A stretch of DNA of 64,000 bases from IMG/VR virus record IMGVR_UViG_3300034107_000262, positions 610 through 64,609 of that record; one strand, given 5' to 3'. The DNA comes from a virus. Taxonomy: Duplodnaviria; Caudoviricetes. Positions 6,544-48,096 of this stretch are shown one piece after another. Below the pieces are notes generated by a model that saw only the letters and a program-made list of their open reading frames with translations, did no database searches and was not told the DNA's origin. Numbering within the stretch: position 1 is the stretch's first letter; every line of letters starts with the position of its first letter. Made by a program: the position numbers and the translations under genes.

Positions 6544-6555
6544 GTGAGGAGTAAT

Positions 6556-35476: not shown

Positions 35477-35618
35477 AATTAATAAAGAAACACTGGAATA
35501 TGAATTAGAAGATGCCGGTGCTATAGTTCATAGTATTACAGCAGATGGTGATTATATTAGCGTTGAAATTTCTAAAGAAGATCCTCAATTAACCGTGGTA
35601 CCCCTATGGCAACAATAA
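35460..35618 (+). CDS. hypothetical protein (52 aa, absent from ORF track)
   Basis: MIIKIKINKETLEYELED...VPLWQQ* fills the gap and overlaps both neighbours. Confidence 0.55.
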   Translation: MIIKIKINKETLEYELEDAGAIVHSITADGDYISVEISKEDPQLTVVPLWQQ

Positions 35619-38050
35619 CCTCTACAACATCAGGTAATTTCAATGCGACTACAACATGGGTTGGTGGTGTAGTTCCAGTAGATGGGGATTCTTTCTATAT
35701 TGCAACAGGACATACCGTAATATATAATGTTACTACTCCTGTTACGAATGGATTTAATGATAGCGATATTTATGGTATTCTTCAACATCAGGCATCGGTA
35801 AATACCATATTAAGAATGAATGGTAGATTGCGTGTTAGAACTGCTGGTACATATCATATGCGAGCAGGTGCTAAACTGCAGTTTAAAGGTACTGCGGCAG
35901 AATCGCATATACTATATGTAGTCGGAGAATCAGGTGCTTCATTCATAGCTGAAGGCAGTGATGGAATGCCGGCTACTACTCTTTCAGCTGCTGCCAATGA
36001 GAGGTCTACAAGTTTCACAGTAGTTAGTGCTACTAATTTTGCTGTTGGAGAATGGATATCAGTATTTGATAACGTTACAGCTCAGGCAAACACTGCAGGA
36101 GCAACTTCTCTAAGAGATGAAGGTTTCTGGATTCATGATATTTCAGGAAATACGATATATTTTAGACAATACGTTGGCCCACAGACAACTATAACTAGTG
36201 GATCTGGAACTAGTGTAATCGTTGCAAACTCTAAAGTATTAAGAGTTGGACAGATCATAATTTTTGGTACCGGTGTTAATAGAAATATACTTACCATCAC
36301 TGCTATAAATTATTCAACTCATACACTTACACTTTCTGCTGCTATAACAGGAACGATTGCTGGATTAACGGTCTACGAGACTGGAACTGATAAAATTCAT
36401 TCATCTGGAGAAAAGGTTAGGAAGGTAGCAACAGTAACTACAGTTGCAGCGATTTCTACAGATACTACTATTACAGTAGCAAATGCTAATATGTTTACTG
36501 CAGGTGATGAAGTCTGGGTAGAAGCAAGAAGTGAAGCTGCTAACAATCAGGATAGACAAAAGGATACATATTCCACTTATATGAAAACGGTATCAAGTGT
36601 TGCAGGTAATGTGCTTACGCTAACTGGTACAATAGGATACAATCTTGTAGTTGGAACTCTTATAACAAGACTAACACGAGATGTAGTAGTTGAGCCAGTA
36701 ACTCCAAATACAGACTATTATGGAGTTTATTTTGAAGCATACAATGCAACATATAATCGTAAACTTATAGTAAAAGATATATATTTTAGATATAATGGAA
36801 GTTCTGCAGGTCAAGCTGAAGGTGGTGTATGGTTTGCCAATGATGGATATTCTAGTACTAACTCTCCTGCAGTTACCCTAACGCAACAGGTGCCTGCTTG
36901 GTCACAACAACCTTGGATTGAAGGTGTAACGCTACTTGGTAGTAACTCATCACGCGATCTTGGAGGTCTTTGGTTACATGGAAGATACTATCAGGCAAGG
37001 TGTTGTACAGTAATTGGAAAATATGATAGTTCTATAACGCTATGGTATGAGAGTGGAGTTTGTGCATATAATTGCATAACATCTGGAGGTACTTGGGGTT
37101 ACAGATGCGAAGGCAATGGCGAGTGGTCAGAACTTGCATACTGCTATTCTTCTAGACATTACTATGCCTTAAGACTTACTCTATATGATGGCGGTTGTGG
37201 TGTACATCATATTATTATTGATGCTATGGATAACCCTCCTTCTTTATTCTCTATGGCTGCAATTCCATTGTATAAAATAAATATGACTGGTGGAACTTAC
37301 GGACTTGCGGTAGATAGAGGTACTGTGATATTTCTATACTCGAAGTATGCAGTATGCAGTGGTTTTAACAAAATAACTGATAATCCCCCAGGAACATATC
37401 AAAGAGGCTTTTATCACTCACAGATAGATCGTGGAAATGCAGGTACTCAAGTTGTAACTATACTTGAAGAGAATTATGAATATGATCGAGTAAGACAGTT
37501 TAGTTATGGCACTGAACGCTATTGGGATGCTGCAGAAAATGCATGGCGCGTAGTAAATGCCACCGACTTTTCAGATTATGGGAATGGATGGTTTACATCG
37601 GTATATGTACCTCCAAACGTAACACTACGAGTTGCATGCGCAGTTAAGCTAGCAGTAGGATTCTCCGGAACGTATCCTAGACTTGAGGCAAGATCAGTAC
37701 AATCAGCAATTGGTCCAAATCAACTTGGAAATGCTGGAGGAAGTTGGAGTAGTGCACTAAGTGGCGGATATTCTGCTGTTGATTATACAATTACAGCTGC
37801 AAGTGCATATGAAAATGCTCAATTAACTATTGCGGCTAAACCATTTCCAAGGTATATTCAAGTAGGAGTTCACTGCTCTAGTTCAACAAGTTCAGAAGGC
37901 TGGTGGATGAAATCAATTGACACATATCTAGATACTCCTTACCCAAATAAAGCATTTGAAGTAATAAATAGAGATAGTGGATCTGGGAATTTAGCTATTG
38001 AAAATAGTTTTATTCAAAATAAAGTAAGAATCGGCGGGAGATTAATGTAA
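35606..38050 (+). CDS. virion-associated protein with G8-like N-terminus and probable beta-helix (spike/depolymerase-like)
   Basis: ITS..SGNF...TW.GGVVP..GD...I..GHTV start; repeated beta-barrel units; Tyr/Cys-rich beta-helix-like region. Confidence 0.5.
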   Translation: MATITSTTSGNFNATTTWVGGVVPVDGDSFYIATGHTVIYNVTTPVTNGFNDSDIYGILQHQASVNTILRMNGRLRVRTAGTYHMRAGAKLQFKGTAAESHILYVVGESGASFIAEGSDGMPATTLSAAANERSTSFTVVSATNFAVGEWISVFDNVTAQANTAGATSLRDEGFWIHDISGNTIYFRQYVGPQTTITSGSGTSVIVANSKVLRVGQIIIFGTGVNRNILTITAINYSTHTLTLSAAITGTIAGLTVYETGTDKIHSSGEKVRKVATVTTVAAISTDTTITVANANMFTAGDEVWVEARSEAANNQDRQKDTYSTYMKTVSSVAGNVLTLTGTIGYNLVVGTLITRLTRDVVVEPVTPNTDYYGVYFEAYNATYNRKLIVKDIYFRYNGSSAGQAEGGVWFANDGYSSTNSPAVTLTQQVPAWSQQPWIEGVTLLGSNSSRDLGGLWLHGRYYQARCCTVIGKYDSSITLWYESGVCAYNCITSGGTWGYRCEGNGEWSELAYCYSSRHYYALRLTLYDGGCGVHHIIIDAMDNPPSLFSMAAIPLYKINMTGGTYGLAVDRGTVIFLYSKYAVCSGFNKITDNPPGTYQRGFYHSQIDRGNAGTQVVTILEENYEYDRVRQFSYGTERYWDAAENAWRVVNATDFSDYGNGWFTSVYVPPNVTLRVACAVKLAVGFSGTYPRLEARSVQSAIGPNQLGNAGGSWSSALSGGYSAVDYTITAASAYENAQLTIAAKPFPRYIQVGVHCSSSTSSEGWWMKSIDTYLDTPYPNKAFEVINRDSGSGNLAIENSFIQNKVRIGGRLM

Positions 38051-39783
38051 TGGCAAAAGACATAATTATAACACCTGCTAGTGGACTTATTGATTTCAAA
38101 AATCTTGCTGGTACTACAACAGGTAGCATACAAGTAGATGATACTGGTAATCTTACTATATCAAATTCTGGGGGTACATTAAGTGTAGGCAATACTGCTA
38201 GTAATGTATATCTCGGAGACGGGGTTAATTCAGTTGACTTAATACTAGAACAAAATGGTGCTGTAAGAGGGGCATCTGGAAAAACACTTACACTTGGTAG
38301 TTCTAATAGTTCTGTAACAGTTGCTAGTATTCCTGCTTTTAATGGTGGTGTGAGTGGTACAACAGCTCCATTTAGCGTTAGTAGTACCAATGTTGTAGCA
38401 AACTTAAATGCAAGTCTACTTAGTGGTTATGCAACTACTACTGCTAGTACTGCAAATACTATTCCGCTACGTGACTCTAGTGGTTATTTAGCGAATGGTT
38501 ATTTCTATACTTCAGCCGGCGGTTCAGAAAGAAACGCTTCGGGTATGGGATACTTCGCAGGATTTAACTCTAGCGATTACTATATTAGAAGTTATACTCC
38601 TGCAGCTGTAGCAGCTGCTATATCTGGTCAGACAATGAATATTGCTGGTACTGCTGGCTTTGCCACTAATTTAGTTAATAGTGGGGGTGGGGGCCTATAC
38701 TCTACTGCTTCTGGCACAGCATATAGTACAGCAGTATGTATACGTGAGTTGAATAGTGCAGGTGCTCAGGGTAATATAGCATCAGTAATGCCTAGATTGG
38801 GATTCCATTGGGGTGGTACAGTAGCTTCTCAAATTGGAATAGAAACTACTGGAAGAATTGCTATTCTAAGTAACCCTGGTACAGCATATGAAGCTTTTGT
38901 ATGTGCTGCATTAACTGCATCTACTGGAACATTTTCAGGAGTACTAACTGCATCTAGTTTTACTGGTGCAGGTACAGGATTAACAGGTACAGCAGCATCA
39001 TTAAGTATTGGGGGTACCGCTGCTAGTGCTACTAGTGCTACCAGCGCTACTAGCGCTACTAGCGCAACCACTGCAACTTATTTAAACACAGCATCGTCTT
39101 CGACAGATGTTACTAATATTACAACTAGAGTAAACTCTGGCTTTTATCAGAATGCTACTGCTACTACTGCTAATGGTTGGCCAGTTACTACAAATTCATA
39201 CTATCATTTACTAGCGTCTACTCATAGTAATGGAAGTAACTATTACTCAATGCAGTTAGCTGGAGATTTTTATAGTAATACATTATATTATAGATCTACA
39301 AATGGTTCAGGTACTACTGCGTGGAATAAGATATGGCACGACGGTAATTTCACTGGTGGTGGTTTAACTGTTTCAGACGATACTACAACCAACGCTTCGT
39401 ATTATCCTATTATTGCTACTGCTACTTCTGGAAGTCAGAGTGCTGGTAAAGTATCTAGTACTAAACTATACTTCAATCCAAGCACTGGAACACTAAATGC
39501 AACTATATTTAATTCATTATCTGATATATCTAAAAAGACTAACATAGTTAAAATCAATGATGCTACAGAAACTATAAATAAAATTGTTGGTGTAGAATTC
39601 AATTGGATTGACAATAATACTAAATCAGCAGGTGTTATCGCTCAAGAATTGGAAAAAATCTTACCGCATTTAGTTGCAGAAACAGACGGTATCAAGAGTG
39701 TTAGCTATTCGGGCTTAATTGCTTATCTAATTGAATCTAATAAAGAACTACATGCAAGAATATGTATTTTGGAGAGTAAATAA
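38050..39783 (+). CDS. tail fibre with knob domain and C-terminal S74 chaperone
   Basis: V.NLNA.LL.G, SAT repeats, SGFY...GWP...Y.MQLA..F...LYYRS...W.KIWH, SD..KKTNI, GVIAQELEKILP. Confidence 0.8.
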   Translation: MAKDIIITPASGLIDFKNLAGTTTGSIQVDDTGNLTISNSGGTLSVGNTASNVYLGDGVNSVDLILEQNGAVRGASGKTLTLGSSNSSVTVASIPAFNGGVSGTTAPFSVSSTNVVANLNASLLSGYATTTASTANTIPLRDSSGYLANGYFYTSAGGSERNASGMGYFAGFNSSDYYIRSYTPAAVAAAISGQTMNIAGTAGFATNLVNSGGGGLYSTASGTAYSTAVCIRELNSAGAQGNIASVMPRLGFHWGGTVASQIGIETTGRIAILSNPGTAYEAFVCAALTASTGTFSGVLTASSFTGAGTGLTGTAASLSIGGTAASATSATSATSATSATTATYLNTASSSTDVTNITTRVNSGFYQNATATTANGWPVTTNSYYHLLASTHSNGSNYYSMQLAGDFYSNTLYYRSTNGSGTTAWNKIWHDGNFTGGGLTVSDDTTTNASYYPIIATATSGSQSAGKVSSTKLYFNPSTGTLNATIFNSLSDISKKTNIVKINDATETINKIVGVEFNWIDNNTKSAGVIAQELEKILPHLVAETDGIKSVSYSGLIAYLIESNKELHARICILESK

Positions 39784-40943
39784 TGCCAAGTAATTTCTTT
39801 ACTGATGATCCTATATTAGGATCTATTGATCTTGATAATAAGTACGTTACTGATGCTTGGTTGGTTGATCAGTTTGTTGGTAATGGTTTGTGGCTATGGG
39901 GGAAGAATAACTATGGTCAACTAGGTCTTGGTAACATAGTCGATCGTTCTAGTCCAGTTCAAGTCGGATCATTAACTAATTGGAAACTAGTTGCTGGTAA
40001 ACTTAATCACAGTGTAGGAATCAAGACTGACGGCACGCTATGGTCATGGGGGAGCGGGAGTCTGGGTCAACTAGGTCTTGGTGACCAAACCAGGCGATCT
40101 AGTCCAGTTCAAGTCGGTGCACTAACTAATTGGAAACAAGTTTCTGGTGGAAACAGTTGCACTACGGCAATCAAGACTGATGGTACTTTCTGGTCATGGG
40201 GATGGAATAGCAATGGTCAACTAGGTCTTGGTGACCGAATCAGTCGATCTAGTCCAGTTCAAGTCGGTGCACTAACTGACTGGAAACTAGTTGCTGGCGG
40301 AGCCTATCACACCACTGCAATCAAAACCGACGGTACGCTATGGTCATGTGGGCAGAATAGCAATGGTCAACTAGGTCTTGGTGTTGTAACCAGATATTCT
40401 AGTCCAGTTCAAGTCGGTGCACTAACTGACTGGAAACTAGTTGTTAGCGGAGGCAATCACACAACTGCAATCAAGACCGACGGTACTCTATGGTCATGGG
40501 GGCAGAATAGTAATGGTCAACTAGGTCTTGGTGATCGAGTCAATCGTTCCAGTCCAGTTCAAGTCGGATCATTAACTAACTGGAAACTAGTTGCTGGAGG
40601 ACTCTATCACAATGTAGGAATCAAGACTGACGGTACTCTATGGCTATGGGGACGTAATACCTACGGTGCTCTAGGTCTTGGTAACACAACCGATCGTTCC
40701 AGTCCAGTTCAAGTCGGATCATTAACTAACTGGAAACAAGTTGCTGGTGCACCTTTTTCTACCACTGCAATCAAAACAGACGGCACTCTATGGTCATGGG
40801 GATACAATAACTTTGGTAAACTAGGCCTTGGTGATGTAGCCAATCGATCTAGTCCAGTTCAAGTAGGTACACTAACTAACTGGAAATTAGTTGCTGGCGG
40901 ATACTATCACACAGCGGCTATAACCTTCAATGATATAACATAA
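39783..40943 (+). CDS. RCC1-repeat 7-bladed beta-propeller protein 1
   Basis: Seven 50-aa units IKTDGTLWSWG.N..GQLGLG....RSSPVQVG.LTNWK.V..G..H. Confidence 0.9.
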   Translation: MPSNFFTDDPILGSIDLDNKYVTDAWLVDQFVGNGLWLWGKNNYGQLGLGNIVDRSSPVQVGSLTNWKLVAGKLNHSVGIKTDGTLWSWGSGSLGQLGLGDQTRRSSPVQVGALTNWKQVSGGNSCTTAIKTDGTFWSWGWNSNGQLGLGDRISRSSPVQVGALTDWKLVAGGAYHTTAIKTDGTLWSCGQNSNGQLGLGVVTRYSSPVQVGALTDWKLVVSGGNHTTAIKTDGTLWSWGQNSNGQLGLGDRVNRSSPVQVGSLTNWKLVAGGLYHNVGIKTDGTLWLWGRNTYGALGLGNTTDRSSPVQVGSLTNWKQVAGAPFSTTAIKTDGTLWSWGYNNFGKLGLGDVANRSSPVQVGTLTNWKLVAGGYYHTAAITFNDIT

Positions 40944-40954
40944 GAGAATAAAAA

Positions 40955-41602
40955 ATGCAATACTTACTAGTAGAAAATAAAGAAACTATTCATCTTGGTC
41001 CATTGTTTTGGAGATATCGTTTTATTCAATCGGAACTAGATGATCTTGAGGTAGAATATGCGGTCTCACCAGTTGAACCAAATGCCTATCTAAAAATAAC
41101 TGACTCATTAGAAATATTTCCAATTGAGTCTATCACTGAACCATCTTATGATAGTACATATGAACAGTTAGTTGGACCTCTTTGGGCTTTCACTGATGTA
41201 GCAATTGGAACATACACAGTTACTTCCAGAGAATTGAGCGTTGTAAAATCTGTTTTAAAAGGTTTGGCTGCTGCTGAACGCTACAAAAAAGAAGTTGCTG
41301 GTGTTAGTGTGACTATTCAAGGTCAAGAAGTAGTAGTTGATACATCTCGTGATGGTCGTAATATCTTTGTTCAAAAGTATCAGATGATGACTGATACAGA
41401 TGTTGTACAATGGAAGTTTCCAACAACTTGGTTGACACTATCAAAAACTGATCTAGGACTTGCTGTAACTGCTGGTGCTGCATACGTTGAAGCTCAATTT
41501 GTCTGGGAACAGAGTATCGTTAATCAGATTGAAGCCGCTGTGACAGTAGACGAATTAAAAGCAATTGTCATTGTTGAGCCAGTCGCACCACTAGGAGTTT
41601 AA
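40955..41602 (+). CDS. DUF4376-like fibre-associated/chaperone protein
   Basis: AAERYKKEVAGV...DTSRDGR...VQWK...W..L...V.AQF.WE......I.AA.T.DELKAI. Confidence 0.65.
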   Translation: MQYLLVENKETIHLGPLFWRYRFIQSELDDLEVEYAVSPVEPNAYLKITDSLEIFPIESITEPSYDSTYEQLVGPLWAFTDVAIGTYTVTSRELSVVKSVLKGLAAAERYKKEVAGVSVTIQGQEVVVDTSRDGRNIFVQKYQMMTDTDVVQWKFPTTWLTLSKTDLGLAVTAGAAYVEAQFVWEQSIVNQIEAAVTVDELKAIVIVEPVAPLGV

Positions 41603-41604
41603 TC

Positions 41605-42801
41605 ATGGCAGTAACTGGACCAAAAACTGGGTTTACTGCTGTTGATCCTAATACTGGAGTACGCCAAGATTTAGGAAATAAATACACTAGTAAAGATTAC
41701 TTCTTAGATGTGTATCCGAATTTAGTACCAGGTAGGACGAGTCCTGGTTTATGGTCATGGGGCCGGAATACCGATGGTCAACTAGGTCTTGGTGACGTAA
41801 CCCATCGTTCTAGTCCAGTTCAAGTCGGTGCATTAACTAACTGGGCTCTAGTTTGTAGCGGGTACTATTATACAGTTACAATCAAGACAGATGGCACTTT
41901 ATGGTCGTGGGGACTTAATGATTTTGGTCAACTAGGTCTTGGTGACATAACCTTTAGAAACAGTCCAGTTCAAGTAGGTACACTAACTAACTGGAAACAA
42001 GTTGCTGGTGGTTATTATCACACTGCAGCAGTCAAGAATGATGGCACTTTATGGTTATGGGGGCGGAATAACTATGGTCAACTAGGTCTTGGTGACATAA
42101 CCTTTAGAAACAGTCCAGTTCAAGTCGGAGCATTAACTAACTGGAAACTAGTTGCTGGTGGAAAATATCACACTGCAGCAATCAATATTGACGGTACTCT
42201 ATGGTCATGGGGATATAATAACGCTGGTCAACTAGGTCTTGGTGACATAACCAATCGTTCTAGTCCAGTGCAAATCGGTACACTAACTAATTGGAAACTA
42301 GTTGCTGGTGGAAGCAATCACACAACTGCAATCAAGACCGACGGTACTCTATGGTCATGGGGACTTAATACCAACGGTCAACTAGGTCTTGGTGACCGAG
42401 TTCGTCGTTCCAGTCCAGTTCAAGTAGGTTCACTAACTAATTGGAAGGAAGTTGATTGTGGATGGTATCACAGTGTAGGAATCAAGACCGATGGTACTCT
42501 ATGGTCATGTGGATTTAATAACGCTGGTCAACTAGGTCTTGGTGACATAACCTATCGTTCCAGCCCAGTTCAAGTTGGTGCTTTAACCAGTTGGAAACAA
42601 GTTTCTGGTGGAAGTGCACATATTGCAGCAATAAAGACTGACGGTACTCTATGGTCATGGGGATGGAATAATTATGGTCAACTAGGTCTTGGTAATACAA
42701 CCGATCGTTCTAGTCCAGTTCAAGTAGGTACACTAACTAATTGGAAGCAAGTTGATTGTGGAGCCCTTCACAATGCAGCAATTTCAGATGGATACTTATG
42801 A
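41605..42801 (+). CDS. RCC1-repeat 7-bladed beta-propeller protein 2
   Basis: Seven RCC1 units after a unique N-terminal arm. Confidence 0.9.
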   Translation: MAVTGPKTGFTAVDPNTGVRQDLGNKYTSKDYFLDVYPNLVPGRTSPGLWSWGRNTDGQLGLGDVTHRSSPVQVGALTNWALVCSGYYYTVTIKTDGTLWSWGLNDFGQLGLGDITFRNSPVQVGTLTNWKQVAGGYYHTAAVKNDGTLWLWGRNNYGQLGLGDITFRNSPVQVGALTNWKLVAGGKYHTAAINIDGTLWSWGYNNAGQLGLGDITNRSSPVQIGTLTNWKLVAGGSNHTTAIKTDGTLWSWGLNTNGQLGLGDRVRRSSPVQVGSLTNWKEVDCGWYHSVGIKTDGTLWSCGFNNAGQLGLGDITYRSSPVQVGALTSWKQVSGGSAHIAAIKTDGTLWSWGWNNYGQLGLGNTTDRSSPVQVGTLTNWKQVDCGALHNAAISDGYL

Positions 42802-43298
42802 AACAATTTATGAAATGTCAACAGTTCTATCAAGACATAGATCAACTGCAAAATTTGATATCCTCTCTTGAATTTGAAGACCATTCGCTTGGCAAAGAAA
42901 TCCTAAACTTCTATTATATTCCAGAAGGTCTTCAGGATTTTCTGAAACAAGTTGTGCAAGAAGATATTGAGATTCAACCCGATACAGGAACATTCCGTAA
43001 ACCATCTAATTTAATACACGTAGACAATTTTTACCAACATGCTCTTTGGACTTGTGTTGTTGCACTAGAAGATACTAAAGTAAACATCTGTGCTCATAAA
43101 GATGCAAATACATTCTTTGATGTTAAAGATAGCCCAGATTTTTTTAAAGAATGTACTATGCTAGAAAACTGGACAATAGATACAAGTATCACTCTAAAGA
43201 AGAATGAGTTTGTTTTAATTCGTCCGTGGCTTTGGAAATCATTAGAACAAGATAAAATGGTTCAGACATTTTTGCTGAATACAAACTTAGGACAATAA
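42798..43298 (+). CDS. 2OG-Fe(II) oxygenase-like (DUF6445-like) protein
   Basis: ATGA coupling at 42798; FY.D.D, FR...IHVD..W.CVV.L, QTF.L. Confidence 0.45.
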   Translation: MKQFMKCQQFYQDIDQLQNLISSLEFEDHSLGKEILNFYYIPEGLQDFLKQVVQEDIEIQPDTGTFRKPSNLIHVDNFYQHALWTCVVALEDTKVNICAHKDANTFFDVKDSPDFFKECTMLENWTIDTSITLKKNEFVLIRPWLWKSLEQDKMVQTFLLNTNLGQ

Positions 43299-43299
43299 T

Positions 43300-44469
43300 A
43301 TGGCATCAGGATATAAATTTCCAATTTTAGATAGTGCTGGAGTAGCAACTAGCACAGTTGTTGATTTTGATGATATGTTTGTGCCACAAGAGTTATTTCT
43401 GAATAGTGGGTTGTGGTCGTGGGGGTATAATGTATATTCTCAACTAGGTCTTGGTGACACGACCAATCGTTCTAGTCCAGTTCAACTAGGATCATTAACT
43501 AACTGGAAACAAGTTGCTTGTGGAGGCTATCACACTATAGCAATAAAGACTGATGGCACTCTTTGGTCATGGGGGTATAATTTTATTGGTCAACTAGGTC
43601 TTGGTAATACAACCGATCGTTCTAGTCCAGTTCAAGTCGGATCATTAACTAACTGGAAACAAGTTACTGGTGGAATTATTCACAGTGTAGGAATTAAAAC
43701 CGACGGCACTCTCTGGTCATGGGGCTTAAATACTAAAGGTCAACTAGGTCTTGGTGACGTAACCCATCGTTCTAGTCCAGTTCAAGTCGGAGCACTAACT
43801 AACTGGAAACAAATTGCGGCGGCGCAGTGGCACACCACTGCAATCAAAACCGACGGCACTCTCTGGTCATGGGGGCAGAATAACTTTGGTCAACTAGGTC
43901 TTGGTAATACAACCGATCGTTCTAGTCCAGTTCAAGTCGGAGCACTAACTGACTGGAAACAAGTTGCTTGTGGAGTCGATTTCACTGCAGCAATTAAGAC
44001 TGATGGCACTCTTTGGTCATGGGGGTATAATGTATATTCTCAACTAGGTCTTGGTAACGTAGCCAATCGTTCTAGTCCAGTTCAAGTCGGATCACTAACT
44101 AACTGGAAACAAGTTTCTGGTGGAAATTATCACACCTCTGCAATAAAGACTGACGGTACTCTATGGTCATGGGGGTTTAATATCAACGGTGGTCTAGGCC
44201 TTGGTGACGTAACCACTCGTTCTAGTCCAGTTCAAGTCGGATCGTTAACTAACTGGAAACAAGTTGCTGGTGGAGGTTATCACACCATTGCGACCAAAAC
44301 CGACGGTACTCTCTGGTCATATGGAGCTAATGGTTATGGGGGTCTAGGCCTTGGTGACACAACCAATCGTTCTAGCCCAGTTCAAGTAGGCACACTAACT
44401 AACTGGAAATTAGTTGCTTCGGGAGTCTATCACTCCGTTGGAATTCAAGCTCCAGATTTACCGATATAA
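43300..44469 (+). CDS. RCC1-repeat 7-bladed beta-propeller protein 3
   Basis: Seven RCC1 units after a unique N-terminal arm. Confidence 0.9.
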   Translation: MASGYKFPILDSAGVATSTVVDFDDMFVPQELFLNSGLWSWGYNVYSQLGLGDTTNRSSPVQLGSLTNWKQVACGGYHTIAIKTDGTLWSWGYNFIGQLGLGNTTDRSSPVQVGSLTNWKQVTGGIIHSVGIKTDGTLWSWGLNTKGQLGLGDVTHRSSPVQVGALTNWKQIAAAQWHTTAIKTDGTLWSWGQNNFGQLGLGNTTDRSSPVQVGALTDWKQVACGVDFTAAIKTDGTLWSWGYNVYSQLGLGNVANRSSPVQVGSLTNWKQVSGGNYHTSAIKTDGTLWSWGFNINGGLGLGDVTTRSSPVQVGSLTNWKQVAGGGYHTIATKTDGTLWSYGANGYGGLGLGDTTNRSSPVQVGTLTNWKLVASGVYHSVGIQAPDLPI

Positions 44470-44594: not shown

Positions 44595-45176
44595 ATGAAA
44601 TTAAACATTGGATCTGGTTATAAACGTTACGAAGACTTCTTAAATATTGATGACGATCCTTTAGTCTGCCCCGACTATATTGTTAATCTAGAAGAATCTA
44701 AACTTCCATTTGATGATAACTCTATCGAAGAAATTCGAGCTCATCATATTCTTGAGCATATCAAGAATTTCATTCCTCTTATGCAGGAATTTTATCGAGT
44801 CTGCAAACACGGGGCAGTTATTGATATAGTTGCACCTCACCATAATCATGAAGTATACTACGGTGACCCAACTCATGTTAGACCAATTACGGTCAATGGC
44901 ATGTATCTCTTTAGTAAGAAGCATTGTTCTACCCATAAAGAGCAACATGATTCTAGCTCAGGATTAGCATTCAAATATAAAATAGATTTTGAAGTAATTT
45001 CTTATGATTTTGATTACGATATATTCTATGTTCCATTGGTCACACAATTTAATCAAAGAAAAGACAAAGGCGAAGTATCCCAAGAGGAAGACTTCGCCTT
45101 TCAACGTCTTATGCGTGAAGCAAATAACGTTGCAATCAATACCAAGATCAAATTAATGGTCATCAAAGATGAGTAG
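44595..45176 (+). CDS. class I SAM-dependent methyltransferase
   Basis: KLNIGSG, LPFDDNSIEEI.AHHILEH, EFYRVCK.G, DPTH. Confidence 0.85.
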   Translation: MKLNIGSGYKRYEDFLNIDDDPLVCPDYIVNLEESKLPFDDNSIEEIRAHHILEHIKNFIPLMQEFYRVCKHGAVIDIVAPHHNHEVYYGDPTHVRPITVNGMYLFSKKHCSTHKEQHDSSSGLAFKYKIDFEVISYDFDYDIFYVPLVTQFNQRKDKGEVSQEEDFAFQRLMREANNVAINTKIKLMVIKDE

Positions 45177-46515
45177 TAATACTCCATTACTAGACTCAAT
45201 CATTCTCTCCTGCAAATCAAAAAACAATCTTGAAGATGCTAAGACATTTTTAATTATCGCAGCAAAAAACTGTAGTGATCTAGAACAATTAGATCATATT
45301 GCATATTTGCAGAGTGAGATTAAAGACTATAAAGGCTGTGTTGAAAGTCTAAAGTTGTGTCTATCTATGGCATACAACGACCGGTCAAAATTTGCTATTC
45401 GAGCCAATGCAGCAAAGATGTACAACCATCTCAATGAGCCAATGATGTCTCTTGCTTATTCTAAGATGAATAAGGAATATCAGTTTGATTACGATACACT
45501 TATGGAGATGTCGTTCTCATATTATCTAATGGGCAATTATGCAGAATCCGAAAAAATGATGCGTTCATTGGTAGCTGATCAAAATCTACCAGACGAAGTC
45601 CGAGGAAGAGTTGAATACAATCTTGGATCATATGATATCGAAAGAGGCAACTTCAAAAAAGGCTTAATAGGTTTTATTGACGTTGGACATAAAATCAAGA
45701 TATGGCATAACCGATATACTCCTAACATTCCGGTATGGGATGGTGAAGACGTCTCAGACAAAACTGTGATTATTCACGCCGAAGGCGGTATCGGTGATGA
45801 ACTAATCAATGTCAGATTTGTTAATAATCTAAAGAAACTCGGTGCTACTCCAATCTGGGTGTCTAATAATAGTGAGCTTGTGCATATTTTTAATCGTAAT
45901 GAAATTCAAAGTACTCAATCTCTTAAAGACATTGATATTTCAAACACTGTGCAGTGTATGGCAATGTATCTCCCTATCCTACTAGATTTGGATAAAGATC
46001 AACTTTGGTCCGGTCCTTATCTAAAACCATCAGATAAATATCTTGCTAAATGGCAAAAAATCTTACCTGAAGGTAAGAAGATAGCACTACGATGGTCTGG
46101 TGCACTTGTATATGATCAGAATCTGCATCGTAGTCTTACTTTAAAACATTATATGGATTTATTTGCTTCTACTCCAGATATTACATTTGTTTCAGTTCAA
46201 CGTGATTGTGATCTAGAGCAACTTAAAGATTATCCAAATGTATTAGATCTTAGCGATAAATTAGAAACCCTAGAAGATTTGTTAGCATGTATTTCATTAG
46301 TAGATCATACATTTTCTAGCTGTACTAGTACAGTGCATGTTGCTGGTTCTTTAGGCGCGAATGTAACAGTGTTTCCCCCTATTGCAGCGTACTATACCTG
46401 GCTGGGTAGAACCGACAATAAGTCAGACTGGTACGGTAATTCTGTTACTGTTATTAGACAACAAAAATTAAAAGATTATTCTCATCTTCAGAGTACTTTA
46501 CCTCTTACACTATAA
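45169..46515 (+). CDS. TPR-containing GT-B glycosyltransferase (GT9-like) 2
   Basis: WDGED, EGGIGDELINVRF, IALRWSG, HRSL, SSCTSTVHVAGSLG, WY..V..IRQ. Confidence 0.8.
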   Translation: MSSNTPLLDSIILSCKSKNNLEDAKTFLIIAAKNCSDLEQLDHIAYLQSEIKDYKGCVESLKLCLSMAYNDRSKFAIRANAAKMYNHLNEPMMSLAYSKMNKEYQFDYDTLMEMSFSYYLMGNYAESEKMMRSLVADQNLPDEVRGRVEYNLGSYDIERGNFKKGLIGFIDVGHKIKIWHNRYTPNIPVWDGEDVSDKTVIIHAEGGIGDELINVRFVNNLKKLGATPIWVSNNSELVHIFNRNEIQSTQSLKDIDISNTVQCMAMYLPILLDLDKDQLWSGPYLKPSDKYLAKWQKILPEGKKIALRWSGALVYDQNLHRSLTLKHYMDLFASTPDITFVSVQRDCDLEQLKDYPNVLDLSDKLETLEDLLACISLVDHTFSSCTSTVHVAGSLGANVTVFPPIAAYYTWLGRTDNKSDWYGNSVTVIRQQKLKDYSHLQSTLPLTL

Positions 46516-47327
46516 TGGAAAAAACTTATCATTTTTTATCTGGTTTACCTAGATCTGGATCTACTGTTCTTGCATCTATTCTAAATCAACATCCAGATGT
46601 TTATGTAACACCAACGAGTCCGATGCTCAATATTGCAGTAAAAATGCAAGAAGCCTGGCGAGAAGATCCAACAGTTAAAGCAAATTATTACGAAGAACAG
46701 ATTAATAATTTAACTAAAGCTATTCTTCCAGCTTTTTGGCAACATAGACCAGAATCAATTATCATAGATAAAGGAAGGGGTTGGGCTAAGAATATGCCCA
46801 ATGCTTCTACTTTATTTGGAAAGAAAATTAAAGCAATTGTAGTCGAAAGAGATTTACCAAGTATCATGGCAAGTTGGTTAACTTTAATTAAAAAACAAAA
46901 GAACTGTTATGTTGATAAAGTGTTATTGCAGAGAGGATACGCAATAACAGATGAAAATAGAATGGGTGAGATGTGGTTCAATATGGTAAAAGATTGTATA
47001 GAAGGATCTCGCCAAATACGTAAAGATGCACCAGATCAAATCATTATTATTAAATATGATGAACTAATGGGTAATGCTACAGCAACATTAAGCCGAATAG
47101 AAACGTTCTTACAACTTCCAAAATTTGAATATGATTTAAACAATATTCAAAATGATACTACTGATGATGATATGACTGCGTGGGGATTTGAAGGATTACA
47201 TACGATTAGACAAAAATTATCAAAGATATCTAATGATCCTAAAGAAATTTTAGGTAGTGAACTATATAATAGATTTGCTGAATTAGAAAAAGAATATATA
47301 TATGAAGATTCTAATAACAGGCTATAA
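46515..47327 (+). CDS. sulfotransferase family protein
   Basis: GLPRSGSTVL..ILNQHP (5'-PSB loop), DKGRGW, RDLPSIMAS, YDEL. Confidence 0.85.
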   Translation: MEKTYHFLSGLPRSGSTVLASILNQHPDVYVTPTSPMLNIAVKMQEAWREDPTVKANYYEEQINNLTKAILPAFWQHRPESIIIDKGRGWAKNMPNASTLFGKKIKAIVVERDLPSIMASWLTLIKKQKNCYVDKVLLQRGYAITDENRMGEMWFNMVKDCIEGSRQIRKDAPDQIIIIKYDELMGNATATLSRIETFLQLPKFEYDLNNIQNDTTDDDMTAWGFEGLHTIRQKLSKISNDPKEILGSELYNRFAELEKEYIYEDSNNRL

Positions 47328-48096
47328 AGGATTCATTGGCCAAAATATGGTCAAGTCATTAGAAACAGAGCATGAAGTAACTGGCTTTGAATGGGACGAG
47401 CCTTTTTCAATTCTAGGATTTGATTTAGTTATTCATTTAGGAGCTATCTCCTCTACTTCAGAAACTAATGTAGATAAAGTCATGCGACAGAACTATGATT
47501 TTTCTGTTCTACTAATAGAAACTTGTAATATGCTGGGGATAGACTTCCAATACGCATCTTCTGCTTCAGTATACGGGCTAGGTACAGAATTCAAGGAAAC
47601 TTCTTCTGTAGACCCTAGAACCCCATACGCTTGGTCTAAGTACATGTTTGATCGTTATGTTCAAAATAAGGTCTGGGATATTAAAGTACAGGGTTTCAGA
47701 TACTTTAATGTTTATGGGCCTCATGAAGATCACAAGGGAGATCAGGCTAGTCCTTATCATAAATTTACCAAGCAAGCTAAAACAACAGGTACAATTGTTT
47801 TATTTGAAGGATCTGATAACTTCAAAAGAGACTTCATACCTGTTAGCCAGGTTGTAGATACTCATAAAGCATTCTTTAGTATCAAAGAATCGGGTATTTG
47901 GAATCTTGGTACCGGAAATAGCAAGTCATTTTTTGAGGTTGCTGAAGAAGTATCAAAATTGTATAATGTACAATATAAATTTATCAAAATGCCAGAAATA
48001 TTTAAAAATAGCTATCAGAAGTATACCTGTTCTGATAATAGTAAGATAAATAACACACTGAAGGCAAAATATGTGGATCCTAAACTGGTTACCTGA
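47302..48096 (+). CDS. gmhD: ADP-L-glycero-D-manno-heptose-6-epimerase-like NAD-dependent epimerase
   Basis: ITG..GFIG, HLGAISST, YASSASVYG, YAWSK, RYFNVYGP.E.HKG.QAS, RDFI. Confidence 0.8.
   Translation: MKILITGYKGFIGQNMVKSLETEHEVTGFEWDEPFSILGFDLVIHLGAISSTSETNVDKVMRQNYDFSVLLIETCNMLGIDFQYASSASVYGLGTEFKETSSVDPRTPYAWSKYMFDRYVQNKVWDIKVQGFRYFNVYGPHEDHKGDQASPYHKFTKQAKTTGTIVLFEGSDNFKRDFIPVSQVVDTHKAFFSIKESGIWNLGTGNSKSFFEVAEEVSKLYNVQYKFIKMPEIFKNSYQKYTCSDNSKINNTLKAKYVDPKLVT

What the first reader, a model, noticed from the sequence alone, without database searches (positions are those of the whole stretch)
39783..44469. Three RCC1 propellers built from 21 homogenised 150-nt units with hypervariable codons: a candidate non-DGR receptor-diversification system
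Seen: all 21 blades share a near-invariant DNA framework, yet fixed loop codons change at positions 1-2 while the wobble base stays constant. By hand count of the codons after GLG-x, codon 2 ends in A in 20/21 units (I,Q,R,V,T), codon 3 ends in C in 20/21 (V,T,I,A) and codon 4 ends in T in 19/21 (D,R,S,N,H,F,Y,T). Sub-blade tracts are shared patchwork-fashion between different genes: 53 nt at 41776-41828 = 43738-43790; about 50 nt at 42676 = 43588 = 43888; 49 nt at 40453 = 42314. The genes follow an S74 tail fibre and flank a DUF4376-like chaperone. Inference: blades are shuffled by recombination or gene conversion under diversifying selection, giving an antibody-like combinatorial binding surface on the virion.
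Basis: partly seen in the sequence, partly recalled or inferred. Interest (0 to 1): 0.85.

Follow-up and report, generated by a model that had tools for sequence, protein, structure and literature searches.

The report
Phage propeller genes evolving in concert
A lake phage carries three tail-module RCC1 propeller genes whose 21 blades keep each other alike by gene conversion while a few loop codons on one face stay highly variable, a pattern known from fungal immune receptors but not, as far as I could find, described for phages.

Summary
All coordinates, wobble counts and shared tracts were reproduced exactly. One correction: only the core of each unit (nt 28-105) is near-invariant, at 87.5% pairwise identity. 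Whole units are 75% identical.

The three genes are seven-bladed RCC1 propellers (Pfam E 1e-85 to 1e-97; AF2 pLDDT 91; best fold match UVR8). They lie behind an S74 tail fibre and flank a DUF4376 gene.

Concerted evolution is well supported:
- All 21 of 21 blades have their nearest DNA neighbour inside the window.
- Two syntenic relatives keep position-specific N-termini, yet the propellers are more alike within a genome than between positional orthologues.
- Long exact tracts exceed a column-shuffle null in 0 of 300 shuffles.

The hypervariable positions 6, 8, 19 and 39-40 align with UVR8 dimer-interface residues. The same positions vary across the family.

Positive selection is significant in the window only at codons 17-19 (dN/dS 5.8). 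It is strong in relative L027 (3.35).

A DGR is not supported: no reverse transcriptase in 5 records, no extra template copy in the window and no adenine bias.

Contigs from four lake runs (2020-2024) showed no convincing blade variants. This therefore looks like evolutionary-timescale diversification, not a programmed system. Virion location and receptor binding remain inferred.

The parts
38050..39783 (+). Tail fibre protein (577 aa) with a C-terminal S74 intramolecular chaperone domain, immediately upstream of the first propeller gene.
   Evidence: Pfam Peptidase_S74 E 2.4e-12 at residues 491-542. 16 of its 18 PHROG matches are in the tail category, most of them tail fibre families, e.g. 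phrog_5668 E 2.6e-23. The C-terminal part has homologues at the same relative place in L016, L034 and L027.
39783..40943 (+). RCC1 propeller gene A (386 aa). Blades A1-A7 lie at 39888-40937, behind a 35-aa N-terminal extension.
   Evidence: Pfam RCC1 E 1.1e-85 with 7 stretches, and WD40_RLD E 2.5e-82. PHROG regulator-of-chromosome-condensation families phrog_7220 and phrog_4219, E 1e-65 to 6e-67. Units extracted.
40955..41602 (+). DUF4376 protein (215 aa) between propeller genes A and B.
   Evidence: Pfam DUF4376 E 1.3e-8. phrog_10508 'tail fiber protein' E 8e-12. Homologues sit at the same position in L016 and L034 and in S-SRM01 gp336 (E 5e-23).
41605..42801 (+). RCC1 propeller gene B (398 aa). 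Blades B1-B7 lie at 41749-42798, behind a 48-aa N-terminal extension.
   Evidence: Pfam RCC1 E 3.9e-97. AF2 model with pLDDT 91.2 and pTM 0.85, showing seven four-stranded blades. Foldseek best match UVR8, E 1.8e-40, TM 0.81/0.86.
42798..43298 (+). Small ORF (166 aa from the ATG that overlaps the stop of B) of unknown family, between B and C.
   Evidence: No Pfam, PHROG or NCBIfam family. Weak homologues at the same position in L016/L024 and L034 (E 4e-12 to 8e-14).
43300..44469 (+). RCC1 propeller gene C (389 aa). Blades C1-C7 lie at 43411-44460, behind a 37-aa N-terminal extension.
   Evidence: Pfam RCC1 E 2e-93 and WD40_RLD E 2.5e-95. Units extracted.
44595..45176 (+). Methyltransferase-like protein (193 aa), part of the conserved cassette.
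   Evidence: Pfam Methyltransf_11 E 5e-5. Homologues next to RCC1 genes in 5 of 22 related loci.
45169..46515 (+). TPR domain plus GT9-like glycosyltransferase domain (448 aa). This is the gene most often found with the propeller genes.
   Evidence: AF2 pLDDT 90.2. VIA-align Z 16.5 to GT9 3tov, 15.7 to heptosyltransferase II 1psw and 15.1 to protein heptosyltransferase TibC over residues about 190-448, with TPR matches of Z about 11 over residues 1-180. Foldseek top hits are the TPR glycosyltransferases SPY and OGT. Homologues in 15 of 22 related loci and in S-SRM01 gp338 (E 1e-56).
46515..47327 (+). Sulfotransferase (270 aa).
   Evidence: Pfam Sulfotransfer_3 E 5e-15. Homologues in 8 of 22 related loci and in S-SRM01 gp345 (E 5e-45).
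47302..48096 (+). NAD-dependent sugar epimerase/dehydratase (264 aa).
   Evidence: Pfam Epimerase E 1.4e-30. A homologue in 1 of 22 related loci, L021.

Best explanation
The three genes encode stand-alone seven-bladed RCC1-type beta-propellers that belong to the tail-fibre module of a lake-water tailed phage. I think they are most likely virion-associated adhesins or accessory receptor-binding proteins; this step is inferred.

Their 21 blades evolve in concert. Short-tract homologous recombination (gene conversion), within and between the three genes, keeps copying pieces of blades onto each other. This homogenises the DNA, above all a 78-nt core of each unit. A handful of codons in the two loops that form one face of the propeller (unit positions 6, 8, 9, 17, 19, 39, 40, 43) stay different from blade to blade.

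Those codons change at their first and second bases on a background that was homogenised recently. The inherited third base therefore persists, often as a codon that is rare in this genome. That explains the 'constant wobble'.

The outcome is three paralogous binding faces, each built from seven different loop sets. This diversity was generated on evolutionary time scales by ordinary recombination plus selection, not by a dedicated mutator.

Shown here: the fold, the repeat architecture, the concerted evolution, the mosaic tracts, the placement of the variable positions in the sequence and (by alignment) on the UVR8 interface face, and the absence of DGR hallmarks.

Inferred: the virion location, receptor binding, and that selection rather than mere lack of constraint maintains all of the variable positions.
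For: Family and fold:
- Pfam RCC1 E 1e-85 to 1e-97, with 7 repeats in each gene.
- AF2 pLDDT 91.2.
- Foldseek and phmmer best hit UVR8, at TM 0.81-0.88 and E 7.7e-62.

Concerted evolution:
- Unit DNA identity is 75.3% within the window and 56.8% to 115 units of 16 related loci. All 21 of 21 units have their nearest neighbour in the window. Codons for the same amino acid are identical in 73.7% of within-window comparisons and 35.7% of between-locus comparisons.
- L016 and L034 share the gene order fibre, RCC1, DUF4376, RCC1, orf166, RCC1. Their N-terminal extensions match by position. Even so, propellers are 65-68% identical within the window and 74-77% within L016, but only 56-59% between the window and L016.
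- There is no clustering by gene or by blade index: 75.9% within a gene, 75.0% between genes, 76.9% at the same blade index.

Mosaicism:
- 7 pairs share 45 nt or more exactly, against 0.19 expected; 0 of 300 shuffles reach this.
- Distances in the three thirds of a unit are uncorrelated (Mantel r 0.12, 0.01 and -0.01).

Not codon bias:
- ACC, GTC, ATC and GCC are used at 7-16% in the rest of the window but fill 20 of 21 units at codon 18.

Selection:
- In the window, core pS is 0.24, while pN is 0.60 at codon 17 and 0.54 at codon 19.
- Counts on a tree for codons 17-19: S=2, N=36, dN/dS 5.8, p=0.002. The other 42 codons give 0.30.
- In L027, 35 blades are 86% identical. 15 of 16 highly variable sites lie at codon positions 1-2, and dN/dS is 3.35 at 6 codons (S=8, N=156, p=6e-5).

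One face:
- By DSSP on the model, positions 6-19 and 38-40 are the strand1-strand2 and strand3-strand4 loops.
- In the phmmer alignment, position 6 aligns with UVR8 W94, 8 with D96, 19 with D107, and 39-40 with the W-R of GWRHT.
- Passages of PMC4501546 place W94, W233/285/337 and R286/R338 at the UVR8 dimer interface.
- The same positions are the most variable in the relatives' blades. The top six are 39, 6, 40, 8, 9 and 19, against 39, 6, 19, 8, 9 and 40 in the window. Spearman 0.66, p=2e-7.

Tail and virion role:
- The genes sit directly behind an S74 tail fibre.
- phrog_4219 (E 1.4e-65) is the family of three tandem RCC1 proteins detected by MS in phage W70 particles (PMC11370258, passage).
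- An RCC1-like protein of GAP32 was identified as structural by MS, and 121Q has 13 copies (PMC5259590, passage).
- BFVD matches include proteins annotated with a T7 tail-fibre N-terminal domain or as tail fibre, from Pseudomonas phages PollyC and Littlefix.

Not an artefact of metagenome assembly at family level:
- Cultured Synechococcus phage S-SRM01 has the same three-gene arrangement. Its blades are 79% identical in DNA, with the same variable positions.
Against: - For 5 of the 8 hypervariable codons in the window, counts give dN/dS of 0.8-1.0 (codons 6, 8, 9: 0.77; codons 39, 40, 43: 1.00). The pooled set gives 1.16 (p=0.28). Unconstrained loops would explain these without positive selection.
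- Synonymous diversity in the unit flanks is high (pS 0.54-0.57). The lack of correlation between unit thirds could therefore partly reflect saturation rather than recombination.
- The tree used for the counts is unreliable if blades recombine.
- Low synonymous diversity in the core could also come from selection on the nucleotide sequence itself. That would inflate dN/dS at codons 17-19.
- No blade-swap or loop variant was seen in contigs of 4 lake runs (X1 and X3 from 2020, X2 and X5 from 2024). Uniquely placed pieces had 0 differences: for example 39038-40124 in X3, 42216-42545 in X5, and 42314-42545 in X2. Contigs do drop rare variants.
- The proteins have only 35-48 residues before the first blade, and no recognisable virion-anchoring domain was found.
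- I could not obtain model coordinates. The one-face claim rests on topology and on alignment to UVR8, not on measured distances or solvent exposure.
Confidence: 0.7

Rival explanations
1. Recent amplification without ongoing exchange. One blade was multiplied to seven and the gene was triplicated recently. The similarity is plain recent ancestry, and the variable positions are simply unconstrained loop residues drifting neutrally.
For: - dN/dS is about 1 at codons 6, 8, 9, 39, 40 and 43.
- The same positions are variable in all relatives, as expected for unconstrained surface loops.
- No variants were seen between 2020 and 2024.
Against: - The triplication is old. L016, L034 and S-SRM01 share the interleaved gene order, and L016 and L034 also share the position-specific N-termini. 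Yet propellers are more alike within a genome than between positional orthologues.
- Blades of the same index in different genes are no closer than other pairs (76.9% against 75.0%). A plain gene triplication would leave them closer.
- Long exact tracts sit in otherwise 64-77% identical pairs, and the thirds of a unit are uncorrelated.
- Codons 17-19 show N=36 against S=2, and L027 shows dN/dS 3.35.
Confidence: 0.1
2. Targeted hypermutation. A diversity-generating retroelement or another dedicated mutator rewrites the loop codons. The NNA/NNC/NNT pattern would be its footprint.
For: - Variation at codon positions 1-2 with a fixed third base is what adenine mutagenesis of AAY codons produces.
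- In L027 the variable codons are NNT: at codon 6, 35 of 35 end in T, and AAT is among the commoner variants.
- The window's record is only 61% complete by CheckV.
Against: - No RVT_1 match in the window's record, nor in the records of L027 (145 kb, 83% complete), L016 (259 kb, 73%), L018 or L013. The control genomes did ring.
- No 22nd, non-coding copy of the unit core on either strand of the window, allowing up to 4 mismatches. All 21 RCC1 matches in the record lie in the three genes.
- Variable sites are not adenine-specific. In the window, 11 of 45 consensus-A sites are variable, against 6 of 31 C, 5 of 35 G and 11 of 39 T. In L027, 24 of 44 consensus-A sites are nearly invariant.
- Codon 18 varies only as RYC.
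- DGRs, as I recall them, act on one or a few variable regions next to a template, not on 21 to 42 tandem blades.
Confidence: 0.03
3. Assembly artefact. The patchwork of shared tracts arises from in-register chimeric joining of blades during short-read metagenome assembly.
For: - The record is a metagenome contig.
- Logan contigs (built, as I recall, with 31-letter words) break up or jump at the repeats. One X2 contig joins the left part of B2 to the right part of B3 (133 of 136 identical to B3) through their 51-nt shared core.
- In-register chimeras would keep the frame open.
Against: - The longest exact repeat between blades is 56 nt. That is shorter than usual read lengths and shorter than the larger k-mers of metagenome assemblers; this step is inference.
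- All listed pieces of the best-holding run X1 match with 0 differences.
- Unique parts recur unchanged in three further runs.
- The same architecture, homogenisation and variable positions occur in the genome of the cultured phage S-SRM01 and in many independent contigs.
Confidence: 0.03
4. Same evolutionary mode, different function. The propellers are not receptor-binding virion parts. They would instead be substrates or partners of the co-encoded glycosylation and sulfation enzymes, or intracellular effectors or decoys whose variable face engages variable host proteins such as defence sensors.
For: - There is no recognisable virion-anchor domain. Only 35-48 residues precede blade 1.
- The most constant neighbour of these genes is not a fibre. 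It is a TPR plus GT9-like enzyme (15 of 22 loci) and a sulfotransferase (8 of 22).
- The GT9-like domain resembles the protein heptosyltransferase TibC (Z 15.1).
- PHROGs files the family under nucleotide metabolism, by name only.
Against: - The genes sit inside the tail-fibre block and upstream of lysis.
- Family members were detected in W70 and GAP32 particles.
- Propellers of this fold are fused to tail-fibre N-terminal domains in other phages.
- Glycosylation of an adhesin would be compatible with a virion role.
Confidence: 0.2

Closest known systems
Fungal NLR (HNWD/het-d/het-e) WD40 repeats with high internal conservation (Paoletti, Saupe and Clave 2007, PMC1805685, abstract and outline read; Dyrka et al. 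2014, PMC4986451, passages read; Chevanne et al. 2010, PMC2873952, listing only)
   Same: [quoted passage not shown]
- A few codon positions per repeat that are hypervariable or positively selected and map to the ligand-binding face.
- Diversity arises from a large pool of repeats, reshuffling and selection, without a dedicated mutator.
   Different: - The repeat is RCC1, not WD40. The genes are phage tail-module genes without any NOD/NTPase or effector domain.
- Blade number per propeller is fixed at 7: 38 of 43 RCC1 ORFs in relatives carry 7, 14, 21 or 35 repeat matches. Fungal repeats are reported to vary in number.
- Whole-unit DNA identity in the window (75%) is below the 85% protein identity used to define 'high internal conservation'. 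Relative L027 reaches 86% DNA identity.
- There is no RIP.
Multi-copy RCC1-like virion proteins of large phages (W70_237-239, PMC11370258; GAP32 GAP_001, 121Q and PBECO4 arrays, PMC5259590; passages read)
   Same: - Tandem arrays of RCC1-like genes in tailed phages, with members detected in purified particles by mass spectrometry.
- The window's protein A matches the same PHROG (phrog_4219, E 1.4e-65).
   Different: - Those papers, in the passages I read, report presence and copy number only. They do not report blade homogenisation, hypervariable codons or a conserved enzyme cassette.
- Identity to the window is low: 28-29% to Escherichia phage UB and other large E. coli phages of about 350-370 kb.
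Diversity-generating retroelements (DGR) of phages and bacteria
   Same: - Variation is focused on first and second codon positions of ligand-binding residues in a phage tail-associated protein.
- NNT-type codons cannot mutate to stop codons at positions 1-2.
   Different: - No reverse transcriptase, no template repeat and no adenine specificity.
- 21 to 42 targets rather than one or a few.
- The scaffold is a propeller, not a C-type lectin or Ig fold (the last point is recalled).
UVR8 and other eukaryotic RCC1-like domains (PDB 6xzl, 4dnw, 1a12, 3kci)
   Same: - Seven-bladed RCC1 propeller with 35-36% identity and TM 0.81-0.88.
- The phage hypervariable positions coincide with the UVR8 interaction-face residues W94, D96, D107 and W/R of GWRHT.
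   Different: - Those residues are not conserved, so there is no UV-B sensing triad. GWRHT is replaced by G-x-x-H-T with variable x-x.
- There is no evidence for guanine-nucleotide exchange activity.
- The blades are far more alike than in the eukaryotic proteins.
Synechococcus phage S-SRM01 gp335-gp345 (NC_070963.1)
   Same: Same cassette in a cultured freshwater cyanomyovirus:
- Three RCC1 genes, 48% identical to gene A.
- A DUF4376 homologue, a TPR/GT9-like protein and a sulfotransferase.
- Blades 79% identical in DNA, with the same variable positions.
   Different: - A 240-kb T4-like myovirus. The window instead has a siphovirus-like layout (major tail protein, 2653-aa tape measure, portal 41% identical to Vibrio phage Ceto-type phages).
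- The units are 51 aa long.
- The main text of the genome paper does not mention these genes: 0 occurrences of six search terms (PMC8557907).

Membership tests
RCC1 / RCC1-like domain (Pfam PF00415, PF25390) | Seven tandem repeats of about 50 residues scoring above the Pfam gathering cut-off | tested here: met
   282-319 bits against a cut-off of 21.7, with 7 stretches in each of the three proteins. WD40_RLD gives 278-320 bits against a cut-off of 150.
RCC1 / RCC1-like domain (Pfam PF00415, PF25390) | Seven-bladed beta-propeller fold | tested here: met
   AF2 model of B with pLDDT 91.2 and 28 strands in seven groups of four. Foldseek matches to UVR8, HERC2, RPGR and RCC1 with E 1e-40 to 1e-33 and TM about 0.8.
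RCC1 / RCC1-like domain (Pfam PF00415, PF25390) | Guanine-nucleotide exchange or another defined biochemical activity | not testable with these tools
Diversity-generating retroelement target | Reverse transcriptase in the same genome | tested here: not met
   0 RVT_1 matches in the window's record (61% complete) and in 4 relatives' records (9-83% complete). The incomplete records leave a small gap.
Diversity-generating retroelement target | A template repeat: a near-copy of the variable region outside the target gene | tested here: not met
   The two 21-nt core consensus words, with up to 4 mismatches, occur only inside the three genes (20 and 19 hits) and never on the minus strand. All 21 RCC1 matches in the record lie in the three ORFs.
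Diversity-generating retroelement target | Variable sites correspond to adenines | tested here: not met
   Variable sites fall on all four consensus bases: A 11 of 45, C 6 of 31, G 5 of 35, T 11 of 39. In L027, 24 of 44 consensus-A sites are nearly invariant. The consensus was used as a stand-in for a template.
Repeat arrays under concerted evolution with hypervariable surface positions (fungal NLR type) | Repeats more alike within a genome than between orthologues, within and between paralogous genes | tested here: met
   21 of 21 nearest neighbours lie in the window. Paralogues are 65-68% identical, against 56-59% for positional orthologues in L016.
Repeat arrays under concerted evolution with hypervariable surface positions (fungal NLR type) | [quoted passage not shown] | tested here: not met
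   Whole-unit DNA identity is 75.3% in the window. Only the 66-column core reaches 87.5%. L027 reaches 85.7% DNA identity. The published criterion is on protein over 100 aa and was not recomputed.
Repeat arrays under concerted evolution with hypervariable surface positions (fungal NLR type) | Positive diversifying selection at a few codons that map to the binding face | tested here: inconclusive
   In the window, codons 17-19 are significant (dN/dS 5.8, p=0.002) while the pooled 8 codons are not (1.16, p=0.28). L027 gives 3.35, p=6e-5. The face mapping is by alignment to UVR8 only.
Repeat arrays under concerted evolution with hypervariable surface positions (fungal NLR type) | Repeat-number polymorphism and a NOD/STAND architecture | tested here: not met
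   38 of 43 RCC1 ORFs in relatives have 7, 14, 21 or 35 repeat matches. No NTPase domain is found in the proteins. This therefore works like that class but is not a member.
Phage receptor-binding or tail-fibre protein | Presence in the virion at the tail tip and binding to a host surface receptor | not testable with these tools
   Support is by context and by reports on other phages only.
Phage receptor-binding or tail-fibre protein | An N-terminal domain that anchors the protein to the baseplate or a fibre | tested here: inconclusive
   No family is detected in the 35-48 N-terminal residues. In the model they have pLDDT 56-73, with two short strands and two helices. They are conserved by gene position across three genomes, which would suit either propeller closure or docking.

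The most novel reading that the evidence does not exclude
A mobile cassette is widespread in aquatic phages. It is seen here in a siphovirus-like lake phage, in contigs of 145 and 259 kb, and in the cultured cyanomyovirus S-SRM01. It would be a retroelement-free way of diversifying host-recognition surfaces.

Arrays of 21 to 42 near-identical RCC1 blades serve as a shared pool. Blade-level gene conversion reshuffles that pool. Strong selection then rewrites about six stop-proof NNT-type codons per blade on one propeller face.

The resulting adhesins would further be glycosylated and/or sulfated by the co-inherited TPR-GT9 and sulfotransferase enzymes.
Probability: 0.25. Interest if true: 0.8.

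Novelty: new variant of a known kind. Interest (0 to 1): 0.6.

Why it matters
Phage host range is set by receptor-binding proteins. The known routes to diversify them are point mutation, module swapping between phages, and DGRs. Concerted evolution of a pool of propeller blades, with a few hypervariable loop codons per blade, would be a further route. It is the one described for fungal self/non-self receptors.

The family is very large: 7994 of the 8000 scored candidates had E of 1e-20 or better. The same cassette occurs in a cultured freshwater cyanophage, so the idea can be tested at the bench.

The constant company of a TPR-GT9-like enzyme and a sulfotransferase hints at modified adhesins, which would also be unusual for phages.

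My literature searches found no description of this for phage RCC1 proteins.

Tried and rejected
- Sawyer-type site permutation gave SSCF 96154 against 72508 +/- 2660, with 0 of 500 permutations reaching it, and MCF 35 against 23.7, with 8 of 500. I do not rely on it. The clustering of slow sites in the core inflates the statistic, so I replaced it with the column shuffle and Mantel tests.
- Read evidence. All four runs are Logan contigs that break at the repeats. The listed joints have sides of only 22-36 letters, and the loose ends look like other phages' RCC1 genes. The X2 'variant' of 21 letters equals B3 (133 of 136, using the 18 changes listed). The X3 changes at 43875-43886 lie 36-47 letters from a contig end, next to a shared core. 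None of this can count as a blade swap or as its absence.
- A search for closer relatives failed. The best full-length homologues are 62-66% identical, no closer than the paralogues are to each other. Blade swaps between near relatives could not be examined.
- Literature searches for RCC1 in phages mostly returned Roscoff culture-collection strain numbers or rcc locus tags.
- Pfam and NCBIfam gave nothing for the 448-aa neighbour beyond weak TPR hits. Only the fold comparison placed it.
No solvent-exposure or distance mapping was done.
- One search returned no answer and was repeated.
- Not run: complex prediction, the metagenome contigs and genome-contig scans, the search of protein representatives and the protein atlas. 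No claim in this report depends on them.

Full report
**What is there**

The window is almost all of a 64.6-kb IMG/VR virus record, which is linear and 61% complete by CheckV. Its plus strand carries, in order:
- a head-and-tail module: large terminase, portal, a protease/major-head fusion, major tail protein and a 2653-aa ORF at the tape-measure position;
- a block of fibre-like genes: the 326-aa and 577-aa proteins match tail-fibre PHROGs at their S74-type C-terminal ends (Pfam Peptidase_S74 was scored only for the 577-aa one), and the 552-aa and 910-aa proteins match fibre PHROGs without that end;
- the three RCC1 genes of the finding;
- four enzyme genes;
- a lysis block with a GH19-type lysin.

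The portal is 41% identical to those of Vibrio phages of about 128 kb. The host is not known from this. The DNA recurs in 24 coded lake-water metagenome runs dated 2020-2024.

**Check of the observation**

Genes A (39783-40943), B (41605-42801) and C (43300-44469) each contain seven 50-codon units without a single indel. TRF finds period 150.

The third base of codon 17 is A in 20 of 21 units, of codon 18 is C in 20 of 21, and of codon 19 is T in 19 of 21.

Codon usage does not explain this for codons 17 and 18. Given the amino acids present and the usage in 20 other genes of the window, 8.8 and 2.2 of 21 would be expected (P=2e-7 and 3e-19). For codon 19 the expectation is already 14.2 (P=0.01).

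The claimed shared tracts are exact at the stated places: 53, 51, 56 and 49 nt.

'Near-invariant framework' needs qualifying:
- Whole units are 75.3% identical on average, range 61-86%.
- A 66-column core (nt 28-105 without codons 16-19) is 87.5% identical, with 35 invariant columns.
- The flanks are 66% identical.
- In the core, Leu-12 is CTA, Leu-14 is CTT, Gly-15 is GGT, Pro-23 is CCA and Gln-25 is CAA in all 21 units. Leu-1 uses five codons and Gly-5 three.

**Fold and the place of the variable residues**

Pfam scores are far above cut-off. The AF2 model of B is confident, with pLDDT 91.2. Its best matches are UVR8, then HERC, RPGR and RCC1 domains.

By DSSP each unit runs as follows:
- strand (positions 1-5);
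- long loop (6-19);
- strand (20-25);
- loop (26-31);
- strand (32-37);
- short loop (38-40);
- strand (41-46);
- loop (47-50).

In an antiparallel meander the first and third loops come out on one face and the other two on the opposite face. This step is inference from topology.

The positions whose non-synonymous diversity exceeds the overall synonymous diversity are 6, 8, 9, 17, 19, 39, 40 and 43. All but 43 lie in the first and third loops. Position 43 is the third residue of the strand that follows the third loop.

In the phmmer alignment to the UVR8 D96N D107N W285A chain, unit position 6 aligns with W94, 8 with residue 96, 19 with residue 107, and 39-40 with the W-R of the GWRHT motifs. 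Passages of PMC4501546 place W94, the W233/W285/W337 triad and R286/R338 at the UVR8 dimer interface.

I could not get the coordinates. No distances or exposures were measured.

**Concerted evolution**

Four results point the same way.

1. Each of the 21 units has its closest DNA relative inside the window. Identity to 115 indel-free units of 16 related loci is 56.8%, against 75.3% within. Where two units encode the same residue they use the same codon in 73.7% of comparisons within the window and 35.7% between loci. Units with indels, and locus L023 (a duplicate of L022), were left out.

2. There is no structure by gene or by blade index: 75.9% within a gene, 75.0% between genes, and 76.9% for the same index in different genes.

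3. L016 (from a 259-kb contig) and L034 have the same interleaved order: fibre end, RCC1, DUF4376, RCC1, small ORF, RCC1, methyltransferase, TPR protein. The short N-terminal extensions of the first, second and third genes resemble each other by position across the three genomes. The triplication is therefore older than these lineages. Even so, whole proteins are 65-68% identical within the window and 74-77% within L016, but 56-59% between them. L034 is less homogenised, at 52-58%.

4. Local linkage occurs without long-range linkage. Seven pairs share 45 nt or more exactly, against a mean of 0.19 in 300 column shuffles, none of which reached 7. Distances in the three thirds of a unit are uncorrelated (Mantel r 0.12, 0.01, -0.01; p 0.2-0.5).

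This is what short conversion tracts produce. Saturation in the flanks (pS about 0.55) may contribute to the lack of correlation.

**Selection**

Overall pS is 0.378 and pN is 0.205. The core has pS 0.24. Codons 17-19 have pS 0.12 and pN 0.50.

Parsimony counts on a FastTree tree of the 21 units:

| Codon set | S | N | dN/dS | p |
|---|---|---|---|---|
| 17-19 | 2 | 36 | 5.8 | 0.002 (binomial) |
| 6, 8, 9 | | | 0.77 | |
| 39, 40, 43 | | | 1.00 | |
| All eight variable codons | | | 1.16 | 0.28 |
| Remaining 42 codons | | | 0.30 | |

In the window, positive selection is therefore demonstrable only for the loop embedded in the homogenised core. The tree is unreliable if blades recombine.

The family gives a clearer picture. 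The same positions are the most variable in the relatives.

In L027 (three 14-blade ORFs; 35 indel-free 49-codon blades of the 38 blades scored over the whole repeat, out of 42 repeat matches):
- DNA identity is 85.7%.
- 15 of 16 highly variable sites are at codon positions 1 or 2.
- Codon 6 ends in T in 35 of 35 blades.
- Six codons give S=8, N=156, dN/dS 3.35, p=6e-5, against 0.72 for the rest.

The window looks like an older, partly eroded state of the same process.

**Why not a DGR**

- There is no RVT_1 match in the window's record or in the records holding L027, L016, L018 and L013. The control genomes did ring.
- There is no further copy of the unit core anywhere in the window.
- Variable sites fall on all four consensus bases, and most consensus adenines are invariant.

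The records are incomplete, so a small doubt remains.

**Is it happening now?**

Contigs of four runs were laid: X1 and X3 from 2020, X2 and X5 from 2024. They break at the repeats.

Pieces that can be placed uniquely have no differences. Examples are 39038-40124 in X3, 40922-41828 in X2, 42216-42545 in X5, and all listed pieces of X1.

The one 21-letter 'variant' is a contig that runs from the left of B2 into the right of B3 through their shared 51-nt core (133 of 136 identical to B3). It is either a one-blade deletion or an artefact of short k-mers, and I cannot tell which. Contigs also hide rare variants.

Nothing here shows fast or programmed shuffling.

**Function**

The virion or adhesin reading rests on four things:
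- Position inside the fibre block.
- Membership of phrog_4219. This is the family of three tandem RCC1 proteins found by ESI-MS/MS in phage W70 particles (PMC11370258, table passage).
- The structural RCC1-like protein of GAP32, and the multi-copy arrays in 121Q and PBECO4 (PMC5259590, passage).
- BFVD matches to proteins annotated with a T7 tail-fibre N-terminal domain or as tail fibre.

Against it, the window's proteins have no recognisable anchor domain.

**A wider cassette**

The 448-aa neighbour (45169-46515) folds confidently, with pLDDT 90.2. It is a TPR domain followed by a GT9-like domain:
- VIA-align Z 16.5 to a GT9 enzyme, 15.7 and 15.0 to the LPS heptosyltransferases WaaF and WaaC, and 15.1 to the protein heptosyltransferase TibC.
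- Foldseek ranks the TPR glycosyltransferases SPY and OGT first, at low TM.

Homologues lie beside RCC1 genes in 15 of 22 related loci. The sulfotransferase is found in 8, the methyltransferase in 5, DUF4376 in 2 and the small ORF in 3. L016/L024 and L022/L023 are near-duplicates of each other.

The cultured Synechococcus phage S-SRM01 has the same set, gp335 to gp345. Its blades are 79% identical in DNA with the same variable positions. The main text of its genome paper contains none of six relevant terms.

That the enzymes modify the propellers is a lead only.

**Comparison and novelty**

The evolutionary mode matches the fungal het-d/het-e/NWD WD40 repeats. Those show concerted evolution within and between loci, plus four positively selected positions per repeat on the interaction surface (PMC1805685, abstract; PMC4986451, passages).

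It is not a member of that class. The repeat type differs, there is no NOD domain, blade number is fixed in sevens (38 of 43 ORFs), and overall repeat identity is lower.

Phage RCC1 arrays in virions are known. Their blade-level concerted evolution with hypervariable loop codons was not found in my searches. I rate it a new variant of a known kind, of moderate to high interest.

Noticed in passing
window 44595-48096; L016, L017-L021, L027, L034; L035 (S-SRM01 gp338, gp345): The RCC1 genes travel with a TPR plus GT9-like glycosyltransferase, a sulfotransferase, a methyltransferase and, in the window and L021, a sugar epimerase. L027 and S-SRM01 also carry 2OG-Fe(II) oxygenases. This suggests a protein- or glycan-modification module coupled to the propellers.
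   Followed up: partly
L027 4884-7073, 7962-10151, 13677-15860: Three 14-blade (two-propeller) ORFs whose blades are 86% identical in DNA. Their hypervariable codons are almost purely NNT (codon 6: 35 of 35 end in T). dN/dS is 3.35 at six codons. No reverse transcriptase is found in the 145-kb record.
   Followed up: yes
L022 6319 onward, L023 7955 onward, L018 7817 onward, L026: Single ORFs with 35 or 21 RCC1 repeat matches (five or three propellers in one chain). Propeller number per gene varies in the family, while blades come in sevens.
   Followed up: no
window 41799-42095 (run X2 contig): A lake-metagenome contig joins the left part of blade B2 to the right part of B3 through their shared 51-nt core. 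It is either a one-blade deletion variant or a short-k-mer assembly jump.
   Followed up: partly
window 29073-30053 and 38050-39783: Two separate fibre genes end in matching S74-type C-terminal regions (shared PHROG hits). With the 552-aa, 910-aa and 814-aa proteins, this phage has an unusually long block of fibre-like genes before the propellers.
   Followed up: no
window 39018-39070: A 9-nt tandem repeat (5.3 copies) inside the S74 fibre gene, encoding the run SATSATSATSAT.
   Followed up: no
window 35606-38050: An 814-aa protein in the fibre block with no Pfam or PHROG family (only a sub-threshold G8 hit, E 0.036).
   Followed up: no
window 6544-8526: A single 660-aa ORF matches both head maturation protease families (residues about 29-304) and major head protein families (about 414-648). 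It is an apparent protease/capsid fusion.
   Followed up: no
window N-termini of A, B, C (39783-39887, 41605-41748, 43300-43410): The short extensions before blade 1 are conserved by gene position across the window, L016 and L034, even though the propellers behind them are homogenised within each genome. They escape conversion and may carry gene-specific docking or propeller-closure functions.
   Followed up: partly
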